The notes under the pieces were generated by a model. The model worked only from the letters and a program-made list of their open reading frames with translations, had not been told where the DNA came from and did no database searches. Position numbers and translations under genes: made by a program. Positions 13,140 through 14,060 of a stretch of 64,000 bases of DNA are shown here, one piece after another. The stretch's first letter is position 1; each line of letters begins with the position of its first letter. Source of the DNA: the human T2T-CHM13v2.0 reference genome, Homo sapiens. The stretch lies in assembly GCF_009914755.1 (NCBI RefSeq), contig NC_060947.1. One strand, given 5' to 3'.

Positions 13140-14060
13140 GGCCAATCTTGGTAGTGCAGACTAAGAAGCAGCCCAGTAAGTTCTTAGAACCGGAAACTCC
13201 CCTCCCCCCAAACACCCAACCGCGCAGCCCACGCTGCGGGGCCACGACTTGGCCGGATTTATGTTCATGGCTGAGGATGCCATGGGCCGAGTAAGAAGGA
13301 GAACCGCCACCCAACCACGCAGCCAAGAGCAACCCAGGGATCCCTCCTCTGCTTGCTCCCCTCCCCCACCCCTGCTGTACCTTCTGCGCAGCCATCTCGG
13401 TAACGGGCGTCAGGGGCGCTCGGCGGCCTGCTGTCCAAGCTGGGGTCAGGAGCCTGGCGGTAGCAAAGAGCATCACCGAAAGGAAGCTGGTAGGCTAGCG
13501 AGGCCAGCCCCAAAGACCCACAGATACACGCGCTGCTCCGAACTCGCGGGCCCGCGGCGTCCACTAATGAGATGAACCTGGGCGCGCAGCGGCTGGACCT
13601 CAGCTGCTAGGGCGCCGCCAAGGCCCTGCTGGACACCTTCTGGTACCTGGGCCTCGTGTATTACACCTGTGGCTGCCGCCGAGGCGCGGTTCAATTTGAA
13701 GTCTGAGCCCCTACAGGCCCGTGAATCCTGGATTACAACTGCAGTTTGTGCAAGAAGCAGCAGCACCTGCACTTCCACTTAGCAACCTCCGGCTTCACGC
13801 TCCTCCAGGGCGCAGAGAGCATCAAAGCATTATCACCGACCCAACACACACCGGCGCTGCGTAGTTTCTGCAGCAGGTGTGGGGTGAAGAGTTGCCACAC
13901 AGCTGTCTGACACCGGGTGTACGGCGTCACCCCTCACTTCCTGGACAAGGCAACATTTTCCTAAAGGTAAAGACCATGAACATGTAGAGGCCCCCTTACT
14001 CTCATGCTAGTCCGCATTCAGCCGGAAGCAATTCAGCAAATTTGCCATTTAAGTGACGCC
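13140..14060. promoter_or_regulatory. CpG-island-like region with promoter motifs over the CENPVL pseudogene
   Basis: Dense CpG in an otherwise CpG-depleted window. CCAAT 13142-13146; ETS-type CCGGAA at 13190-13195 and CCGGAAG at 14022-14028; candidate splice donor AAG|GTAAAG at 13966/13967. Confidence 0.55.
13282..13950 (+). pseudogene. Disabled CENPV-like (CENPVL family, GFA/CENP-V zinc domain) intronless pseudogene
   Basis: Manual translation. From 13282 (GCCATGG): MGRVRRRTATQPRSQEQPRDPSSAC. From 13385 (other frame): CAAISVTGVRGARRPAVQAGVRSLAVAK. From 13572 (third frame): [122 protein letters not shown]. Collinear with CENPVL proteins as recalled. Stops at 13608, 13704, 13722, 13908. Confidence 0.9.

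What the first reader, a model, noticed from the sequence alone, without database searches (positions are those of the whole stretch)
13282..13950. Hidden CENP-V-like (CENPVL) retro-pseudogene 10 kb upstream of EZHIP
Seen: three reading frames stitch into a CENPVL-like protein with N-terminus MGRVRRRTATQ..., then CAAISVTG..., then the GFA domain [31 protein letters not shown] ... [10 protein letters not shown] ... [10 protein letters not shown]. It has four in-frame stops, at least two frameshifts, a deletion of the ERWETF segment after LGAQR, damaged Zn ligands (GCHCG to GCRRG, DCxC to DYNC) and no C-terminal tail. Knowledge: CENPVL1-3 are intronless Xp11.22 retrogenes of CENPV. Inference: an additional, older dead family member beside EZHIP that ORF calling misses and that may be unannotated. 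It may be intact in other mammals, which would pair a germline chromatin/centromere factor with a PRC2 inhibitor.
Basis: partly seen in the sequence, partly recalled or inferred. Interest (0 to 1): 0.8.

Follow-up and report, generated by a model that had tools for sequence, protein, structure and literature searches.

The report
Old dead CENPV-like gene copy
This is a real but already annotated dead copy of the X-linked CENPV-like gene family, broken in many places and probably about as old as placental mammals; its only mildly interesting feature is that its CpG-rich remains now carry the annotated start of an antisense non-coding RNA.

Summary
Window 13282-13950 (+) reads as a decayed CENPV-like protein. 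Pfam GFA matches the read-through frame at E 1.6e-5, above its cut-off. The best protein hits are named CENPVL3, E 2.8e-36. Three intact X-linked paralogues are 79% identical in DNA.

I count five in-frame stops, six frameshifting indels, a 27-nt and a 3-nt in-frame deletion, loss of two of seven conserved cysteines, and loss of about the last 44 codons.

It is not hidden: RefSeq already lists LOC100419238 at 13380-13955. That span misses the conserved ATG at 13282 and about 240 bp of shared 5' flank.

It belongs to the CENPVL lineage and is not a separate retrocopy of CENPV (tree 100/100). It probably split off before the boreoeutherian CENPVL ancestor: it keeps the CENPV residue at 5 of 20 CENPVL-defining sites. 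An AU test does not reject a younger, primate-nested origin (p 0.166).

No intact orthologue appeared among annotated proteins, and nothing links it to EZHIP.

The relic is one of only two CpG-island-like stretches in the window and holds exon 1 of antisense lncRNA LOC105373204.

The parts
13020..13281 (+). 5' flank shared with the intact CENPVL genes, including a conserved block with a CCAAT motif (ccaat at 13142-13146). It is interrupted by pseudogene-specific extra sequence just before the ATG.
   Evidence: blastn 13020-13181 against L004, 66% over 164 columns, E 1.7e-13. MAFFT alignment A1. Identity is 56-60% over 13040-13281. No match to the parent gene's exon-1 locus L010.
13282..13950 (+). 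Body of the pseudogene, homologous to codons 1 to about 228 of the 272-codon CENPVL ORF. The ATG context is conserved at 13282. It carries five stops, six frameshifting indels and two in-frame deletions.
   Evidence: DNA identity is 74% (K2P 0.32) to L002 and L004. Genome protein search: E 1.5e-37, 52% identity, query 40-231, 3 TGA and 3 TAG inside the match.
13353..13383 (+). 31-nt insertion specific to the pseudogene (first frameshift). On the minus strand it holds the splice donor of the lncRNA's exon 1.
   Evidence: The exact edges of the insertion depend on the MAFFT alignment.
13662..13946 (+). Relic of the GFA (CENP-V/GFA) domain: the stretch matched by Pfam PF04828. Two of seven conserved cysteines are lost.
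   Evidence: residues 57-151 of P0001, profile positions 2-100 of 115.. DNA identity to the paralogues is 80% over 13592-13950.
13381..13468 (-). Annotated first exon of the predicted lncRNA LOC105373204, antisense inside the pseudogene. The exon ends CAGAAG followed by GTACAG at 13381/13380.
   Evidence: Hub annotation table for the exon coordinates. Minus-strand read for the donor.
13201..13900 (.). CpG-island-like stretch (700 bp, GC 0.63, 45 CpG, observed/expected 0.66). The peak, o/e 0.86, is at 13400-13599.
   Evidence: one of only two such stretches in the 64-kb window (whole window GC 0.394, o/e 0.21). The other is EZHIP at 23801-25600.
13995..14333 (.). Old dispersed repeat fragments just past the 3' end of homology. 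This is a possible cause of the truncation, but that is not shown.
   Evidence: the query 13960-14500 has 33 further places in the genome at 69-82% identity, covering query 36-96, 112-282 and 299-374.

Best explanation
Window about 13020-13950 (+) is a non-functional relic of a paralogue of the X-linked CENPVL genes. It is already annotated in RefSeq as LOC100419238.

Shown: it is intronless like CENPVL. It shares with them the start codon context, the N-terminus, 11 of 20 family-defining residues and about 240 bp of 5' flank. It cannot encode a protein, because it has five stops, six frameshifts, two lost zinc-ligand cysteines and no C-terminal 44 codons.

Inferred: it comes from the same ancient retrocopy of CENPV that gave rise to CENPVL. 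It was separated from that lineage by a DNA-level duplication, or is itself the older locus. This happened before the last common ancestor of boreoeutherian CENPVL genes, on the order of 100 million years ago, and it has drifted neutrally as a coding sequence since. It does nothing as a gene. Any present role would be as DNA, namely a CpG-rich promoter and first exon for an antisense lncRNA (see the novel case).
For: Identity:
- Pfam GFA above the gathering score.
- Top protein hits are all named CENPVL.
- 79% DNA identity to three places that hold intact ORFs of 272, 272 and 287 aa.

Intronless origin:
- The paralogue protein matches C17 in five separate pieces but matches the window colinearly.
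- The pseudogene DNA runs straight across the exon 1/2/3 matches of the C17 loci.

CENPVL lineage, not an independent retrocopy:
- ML tree of 50 rows puts it with the 23 CENPVL rows at 100/100, beyond a stem of 0.48.
- It has the CENPVL state at 11 of 20 sites where CENPVL differs from mammalian CENPV.
- In the nucleotide three-way comparison, 72 of 348 sites have pseudogene = CENPVL but not CENPV, against 16 with pseudogene = CENPV but not CENPVL.
- The shared 5' flank is absent from the CENPV exon-1 locus.

Age:
- It is sister to all boreoeutherian CENPVL rows, support 92/81.
- It keeps the CENPV state at 5 of those 20 sites, including a codon identical to CENPV at two differing nucleotides: GAA against GCG in CENPVL, residue 145.
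- K2P is 0.32 overall and 0.25 at non-CpG sites.
- 32 of 190 first and second codon positions (16.8%) at which CENPVL and CENPV agree have changed in the pseudogene. This is comparable to my recalled figure of about 0.15 substitutions per site for the human lineage since the human-mouse ancestor.

Decay: the full lesion list is.
Against: - The deep placement is not secure. The branch is unstarred (92/81), the pseudogene is a long branch (0.58), and the AU test does not reject a tree that nests it with anthropoid CENPVL (lnL difference 5.96, p 0.166).
- Four of the five 'ancestral' states are single-nucleotide changes that could be reversions by chance. By my rough binomial estimate the chance of 5 of 9 lies between about 0.001 and 0.05, depending on the assumed reversion probability.
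- Sites informative within CENPVL subclades were too few: one each, and contradictory. One anthropoid-derived site is ancestral in the pseudogene, and one laurasiatherian-derived site is shared with it.
- The rate calibration is recalled and not computed, and the high CpG content inflates distances.
- No orthologous copy from another species was examined, so the age rests on one sequence.
- There is no direct evidence for DNA-level duplication over retroposition of a CENPVL transcript with a long 5' UTR, because the CENPVL transcription start was not available.
Confidence: 0.85

Rival explanations
1. It is a younger, primate-era DNA duplicate of a CENPVL gene that decayed fast. High CpG content and relaxed constraint would make it only appear basal through long-branch effects.
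For: The AU test does not reject pseudogene plus anthropoid CENPVL as one clade (p 0.166). The highest protein identity in the tree set is to a human CENPVL row (60% over 188 columns). The sister-to-all branch is unstarred. CpG-rich DNA mutates fast: 45 of 73 paralogue CpGs are lost in the pseudogene.
Against: Non-CpG K2P is still 0.25, and 16.8% of formerly constrained sites have changed. That is several times my recalled human-New World monkey neutral divergence per lineage. The pseudogene keeps the CENPV state at 5 of 20 sites where at least 85% of 23 CENPVL rows from primates, Glires and Laurasiatheria share a derived state, one of them through a two-nucleotide codon match. It also has the non-anthropoid residue at the one anthropoid-derived site and K rather than the human CENPVL R at residue 163.
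Confidence: 0.2
2. It is an independent processed pseudogene made directly from CENPV mRNA, as the RefSeq name 'centromere protein V pseudogene' could be read.
For: It is intronless relative to the five-piece C17 gene. It keeps the CENPV residue at 5 of 20 diagnostic sites.
Against: It groups with CENPVL at 100/100 beyond a long shared stem. It shares 11 of 20 CENPVL-derived residues and 72 against 16 nucleotide sites. It shares the CENPVL N-terminus and ATG context. It shares about 240 bp upstream of the ATG with CENPVL, and that stretch finds no match in the CENPV exon-1 locus including 1.5 kb upstream. There is no A-run of 8 or more within 13900-14400. It is truncated at the 3' end, whereas LINE-mediated retrocopies are usually truncated at the 5' end (established knowledge).
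Confidence: 0.04
3. It still encodes something: a short protein from one of the surviving open pieces, for example the 61-codon piece at 13725-13907.
For: Open stretches of 31 to 131 codons exist. The locus is CpG-rich and lies next to an annotated transcription start (hub table).
Against: The open pieces start without a conserved ATG, and the only annotated transcript is on the opposite strand. The 61-aa piece alone falls below the Pfam cut-off (17.3 bits against 24.3) and lacks half of the zinc ligands. Pseudogene-specific changes fall at first and second codon positions (32 of 190) at least as often as at third positions (3 of 52), which is the opposite of purifying selection on the protein.
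Confidence: 0.01

Closest known systems
Human CENPVL1, CENPVL2 and CENPVL3. I assign these names to loci L002, L003 and L004 from recall and from the source names of the protein hits. They are X-linked, intronless CENPV-like genes about 220-315 kb distal in the same assembly.
   Same: Same strand-colinear architecture. They share the ATG context, the N-terminus (MGRVR...), the GFA domain, the upstream CCAAT block and the lack of introns. DNA identity is 79% over the domain by the genome search and 74% over the whole body.
   Different: The three are intact ORFs of 272, 272 and 287 aa and are 97.5-100% identical to each other. This copy has five stops, six frameshifts and a 9-codon deletion, and it lacks the last 44 or so codons and the 3' UTR. 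It retains five ancestral CENPV residues that all sampled CENPVL proteins have replaced.
CENPV, the multi-exon parent gene on C17:16245122-16255767. A paper I read in passages (PMC5393878) places it on 17p11.2 and describes it as a kinetochore protein.
   Same: GFA domain. Five residues (one a full codon) are shared with CENPV against CENPVL.
   Different: CENPV is split into five matched pieces. Its N-terminus and 5' flank are unrelated at the sensitivity used. At 72 of 348 nucleotide sites the pseudogene sides with CENPVL against CENPV.
RefSeq record LOC100419238, 'centromere protein V pseudogene' (hub annotation table).
   Same: Same element and same strand, at 13380-13955.
   Different: The annotated span starts 98 bp after the conserved ATG (13282) and about 340-360 bp after the start of detectable homology (13020-13040). 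The name points to CENPV, although the nearest relatives are the CENPVL genes.
Pseudogene-derived promoters of antisense lncRNAs. This is a general class, recalled; PMC5393878 cites reviews on pseudogene-derived non-coding RNAs.
   Same: The annotated start, first exon and splice donor of a lncRNA lie wholly inside pseudogene-derived, CpG-rich DNA (hub table).
   Different: No expression, methylation or conservation data for this promoter were available here. The lncRNA model is a predicted one (XR_ accession).

Membership tests
GFA / CENP-V domain family (Pfam PF04828) | Profile match at or above Pfam's gathering score | tested here: met
   25.4 bits against a cut-off of 24.3, E 1.6e-5, residues 57-151 of the read-through with X at stops. 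The 61-aa piece alone scores 17.3 bits, below the cut-off.
GFA / CENP-V domain family (Pfam PF04828) | Full set of conserved cysteines (seven in the human CENPVL ORFs: CxC, CxCxxC, CxxC). That they are zinc ligands is recalled from the bacterial GFA structure. | tested here: not met
   Five of seven are kept. The second Cys of CxC is now R and the first Cys of CxCxxC is now Y. So this is a relic of the domain, not a working member.
CENPVL retrogene lineage (X-linked, intronless) | No introns where CENPV has them | tested here: met
   It is colinear over query residues 40-231, while C17 matches in five pieces. Its DNA spans the exon 1/2/3 matches.
CENPVL retrogene lineage (X-linked, intronless) | Residues derived in CENPVL relative to CENPV | tested here: inconclusive
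   11 of 20 sites are derived, 5 ancestral and 4 other. This is enough to place it on the CENPVL stem (100/100) but outside the crown group.
CENPVL retrogene lineage (X-linked, intronless) | Shared N-terminus and 5' flank | tested here: met
   The flank is not found at the CENPV exon-1 locus.
CENPVL retrogene lineage (X-linked, intronless) | Intact open reading frame | tested here: not met
   Five stops, six frameshifting indels and a 3' truncation.
Classical processed (LINE-mediated) pseudogene | 3' poly(A) tract and complete 3' end | tested here: not met
   Homology stops at codon about 228. There is no A or T run of 8 or more in 13900-14400, and the tail is not found elsewhere in the window (best tblastn E 0.15).
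Classical processed (LINE-mediated) pseudogene | Target-site duplications flanking the insert | not tested
   At this divergence short duplications would not be recognisable, and the 3' end is missing.
CpG island (length over 200 bp, GC over 0.5, observed/expected over 0.6; criteria recalled) | Composition thresholds | tested here: met
   13201-13900: 700 bp, GC 0.63, o/e 0.66. The window background o/e is 0.21.
CpG island (length over 200 bp, GC over 0.5, observed/expected over 0.6; criteria recalled) | Unmethylated state in the germ line or promoter activity | not testable with these tools
   No methylation or transcript-start data are held. The only support is the annotated lncRNA start at 13468 (hub table) and one table entry listing LOC105373204 among differentially expressed lncRNAs (PMC6257365, passage read).

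The most novel reading that the evidence does not exclude
The dead gene has been recycled as regulatory DNA. Its CpG-rich body would have stayed unmethylated for tens of millions of years because it serves as the promoter, first exon and splice donor of the 175-kb antisense lncRNA LOC105373204. The donor GT lies inside a 31-nt insertion that only the pseudogene has. In that case the relic, not the protein it once encoded, is the functional unit next to EZHIP.

For: the CpG o/e of 0.66 stands against a window background of 0.21 despite K of about 0.25-0.32 from its paralogues. The peak o/e of 0.86 lies right at and upstream of the annotated start. Only 18 of the 45 lost paralogue CpGs went to TG or CA.

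Against: 28 of 73 CpGs surviving is only mildly above what methylated decay might leave by my rough estimate. The lncRNA is a predicted model. No expression or methylation data were seen.
Probability: 0.3. Interest if true: 0.35.

Novelty: already known. Interest (0 to 1): 0.15.

Why it matters
It matters little. The element is an annotated pseudogene and there is no sign that it works as a gene.

Three modest points go beyond the database entry:
- Its nearest relatives are the CENPVL genes, not CENPV itself. It seems to be an early offshoot of the CENPVL stem, so it preserves intermediate character states that could help reconstruct how the retrogene diverged from its parent.
- The annotated span misses the start codon and the shared upstream block.
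- The relic forms a CpG island that carries the annotated start of an antisense lncRNA. This is a testable small example of a pseudogene reused as a promoter.

The suggested pairing of a centromere factor with the PRC2 inhibitor EZHIP has no support beyond the 10-kb adjacency.

Tried and rejected
- Intact orthologue: three protein searches and a ranking of 120 family proteins against the codon-aware reading found nothing closer than ordinary CENPVL proteins. One search listed only 120 of its 171 hits, so 51 were not seen. Three primate entries without a Pfam domain (P0014, P0025, P0070) looked like possible orthologues, but they are frame-disturbed versions of CENPVL itself.
- Link with EZHIP: a genome search with EZHIP found no relatives near the CENPVL genes (8 matches: itself, three pieces on C5, three weak ones on C9, one on C21). 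BLASTP of EZHIP against CENPVL gave a best E of 2.7.
- Larger shared duplication: beyond 13020-13950, blastn of the paralogue loci against window 11000-17000 (L002-L004) and against the whole window (L005 and L007) gave only common repeats and one weak 120-column match (L005:1135-1251 to window 29460-29577, 64%, E 3.8e-5), which I treat as chance.
- Missing 3' tail elsewhere in the window: not found.
- Dating from subclade-specific sites: only one informative site per subclade, so this was unusable.
- AU test to exclude a primate-nested origin: not rejected (p 0.166).
- First three-way codon comparison: it used an exon-1 match that ran into the intron for residues 128-153. I discarded it and redid it.
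- Literature: 'LOC100419238' occurs 0 times in the 19 papers listed of 22. 'CENPV pseudogene' gave 0 and 'centromere protein V pseudogene' gave 1 paper, which one search lists under CENPVP1; I did not read that passage. Three papers hold both EZHIP and CENPV: I read the passages of one, where they occur only in a gene list and the reference list, and saw only the search listing for the other two. No paper discussing this element was found in those searches. Supplements were not opened.

Full report
**What is there.** Most of the element lies in one frame. Window 13494-13964 read with X at the stops gives a 157-residue string with the GFA-type motifs and four internal stops, plus a TAA at its end at 13962, beyond the end of homology. 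Pfam's GFA model (PF04828) matches that reading at E 1.6e-5, 25.4 bits against a gathering score of 24.3. The 61-residue piece alone scores 17.3 bits, and the other three pieces sent (the 31-residue piece and the two N-terminal frames) match nothing. A search of the large protein collection with the same reading returned 5 proteins from 451 candidates. All are named centromere protein V-like; the best has E 2.8e-36, 52% identity and 97% coverage.

**Relatives in the same genome.** The window is C23:50654001-50718000 of the held assembly.
- A DNA search found three further places on the same chromosome (C23:50889415, 50953573, 50982486), each 79% identical over query 307-669 or 314-669.
- Each holds an intact ORF of 287, 272 and 272 residues. 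I take these to be CENPVL3, CENPVL2 and CENPVL1. The names are recalled and supported by the source names and by the gene order listed in PMC8207324 (passage read).
- A whole-genome search with the 272-residue protein gave 9 matches: the three intact copies, the pseudogene (E 1.5e-37, 52%, query 40-231, six stops inside) and five separate pieces on C17:16245122-16255767. Those five are the multi-exon parent gene.
- No other copy was reported. The tool warns that its counts are lower bounds.

**Anatomy and lesions.** MAFFT of window 12980-14120 against the three loci, read codon by codon against the L002 ORF, shows the following.
- The ATG and its context are conserved at 13282.
- Insertions and deletions in order: a 31-nt insertion (13353-13383), a 17-nt deletion (after 13487), 1-nt and 2-nt deletions (after 13535 and 13547), a 27-nt in-frame deletion (after 13591, nine codons), a +4/-1 pair (13829-13832 and after 13850) that puts about six codons out of frame, and a 3-nt deletion (after 13908).
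- Stops in the homologous frame lie at 13491, 13608, 13704, 13722 and 13908.
- Two of the seven conserved cysteines are replaced.
- Homology ends near 13950, at codon about 228 of 272. Beyond 13956 identity is 39%.
- The missing tail is not elsewhere in the window (best tblastn E 0.15), and there is no A or T run of 8 or more in 13900-14400.
- From about 13995 to 14333 lie fragments of an old dispersed repeat, with 33 other places in the genome at 69-82% identity. The 520 bp to the left of the element are unique apart from one short match.

**Which lineage.** Homology with the CENPVL loci also covers the 5' flank: 13020-13181 against L004 at 66%, E 1.7e-13. This includes a well-kept block around a CCAAT motif at 13142-13146. 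The same flank of CENPVL finds nothing in the parent gene's exon-1 locus, where homology begins only at about the coding start.

I built an ML tree of 50 rows. These were 47 of the 120 fetched family proteins, chosen by hand for taxonomic spread, plus two human ORFs and the pseudogene reading. I left out the L003 ORF, partial sequences and the three decayed primate models. The tree joins the pseudogene to the 23 CENPVL rows at 100/100, beyond a stem of 0.48. At 20 sites where at least 85% of CENPVL rows share a residue different from mammalian CENPV, the pseudogene has the CENPVL state at 11. At the nucleotide level, 72 of 348 sites unite the pseudogene with CENPVL against CENPV, and 16 do the opposite. 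So the element descends from the same retrocopy as CENPVL and not from a retroposition of its own. The label 'retro-pseudogene' is right only in that inherited sense.

**Age.** Several lines point to an old split.
- The tree places the pseudogene below all sampled boreoeutherian CENPVL proteins, but the support (92/81) is below the tool's star threshold and the pseudogene is a long branch.
- At 5 of the 20 diagnostic sites it keeps the CENPV residue. At residue 145 its codon equals the human CENPV codon at both nucleotides that differ from CENPVL.
- DNA distance to the human CENPVL genes is K2P 0.32 overall, 0.24 in the domain and 0.25 at non-CpG sites.
- Of 190 first and second codon positions at which CENPVL and CENPV agree, 32 (16.8%) have changed in the pseudogene.
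- Against my recalled figure of roughly 0.15 substitutions per site on the human lineage since the human-mouse ancestor, this suggests neutral drift for a time on the order of 100 million years.

Against this, the AU test does not reject nesting with anthropoid CENPVL (p 0.166). Subclade-specific sites were too few to help. No orthologous sequence from another species was available. I put the pre-boreoeutherian split at about 0.6-0.65 and a younger origin at about 0.2.

- Intact copy elsewhere: none of the proteins seen is closer to the pseudogene than ordinary CENPVL proteins. The best is 49.6% over the full reading. The direct search returned 7 of 54 candidates, all CENPVL or CENP-V/GFA named except one unnamed macaque partial, with at most 60% identity over part of the query. 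Three primate entries without a Pfam domain are disturbed CENPVL models, not orthologues. This covers only annotated proteins.
- EZHIP: it has no relatives near the CENPVL genes and no similarity to CENPVL. Only the adjacency, 10.3 kb from 13955 to 24233, is shown.

**What it may do now.** As a gene it does nothing. As DNA it stands out. In a window with GC 0.394 and CpG o/e 0.21, only two stretches meet CpG-island thresholds: 13201-13900 (GC 0.63, o/e 0.66) and EZHIP at 23801-25600. The peak (o/e 0.86, 13400-13599) sits on and just upstream of the annotated first exon (13381-13468, minus strand) of the predicted lncRNA LOC105373204. That exon ends at a GT donor (CAGAAG|GTACAG) lying in the pseudogene-specific 31-nt insertion. 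Of 73 CpGs in the paralogue, 28 are kept, 18 became TG or CA and 27 changed otherwise. That mix does not look like pure methylation-driven decay, but the numbers are small and the N-terminal alignment is loose. The lncRNA appears in one table of differentially expressed lncRNAs (PMC6257365, passage read). I rate reuse as a promoter at about 0.3.

**Known or new.** The hub's table lists LOC100419238, 'centromere protein V pseudogene', at 13380-13955 on the plus strand, so the element is already known. My searches found no paper that discusses it. PMC5393878 (passages read) describes CENPVL1 and CENPVL2 as pseudogenes of CENPV on 17p11.2.

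Noticed in passing
outside the window: G000 C5:12730992-12732427: A broken, internally rearranged copy of EZHIP. Query 46-276 and 7-60 lie on the plus strand and 294-496 on the minus strand, at 57-65% identity with stops inside. It is probably an old EZHIP pseudogene on another chromosome.
   Followed up: no
window 13995-14333: Fragments of an old dispersed repeat (33 other genomic places, 69-82% identity) that are not in the hub's list of masked stretches of 100 bases or more. 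They begin about 45 bp after the pseudogene's homology ends.
   Followed up: partly
proteins P0014 (Macaca nemestrina), P0025 (Rhinopithecus bieti), P0070 (Plecturocebus cupreus): Database proteins of CENPVL type without a Pfam GFA domain. Their sequences follow CENPVL and then go out of register inside the domain, as if gene models had been built on frameshifted copies. Some monkeys may be losing CENPVL copies.
   Followed up: partly
L002 and L003 (C23:50982164-50982979 + and 50953442-50954257 -): Two CENPVL ORFs in inverted orientation about 28 kb apart that differ at a single residue (D or Y in the TP?PPG stretch). This looks like an inverted duplicated pair kept nearly identical.
   Followed up: no
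L002:1047-1574 (-), L003:1790-2317 (+), L004:1790-2248 (+): Long antisense ORFs (152-175 aa) across the GC-rich 5' part of each intact CENPVL gene. They are most likely a by-product of the GC content.
   Followed up: no
protein P0102 (Sorex fumeus, 'centromere protein V-like'): Despite its name it groups with CENPV and not with the CENPVL clade in the tree, on a long branch (0.36). It may be a separate shrew copy of CENPV.
   Followed up: no
window 29460-29577 against L005:1135-1251: A weak 120-column match (64%, E 3.8e-5) between DNA 3.3 kb downstream of EZHIP and DNA about 250-370 bp upstream of a CENPVL start codon. I treated it as chance or low complexity.
   Followed up: no
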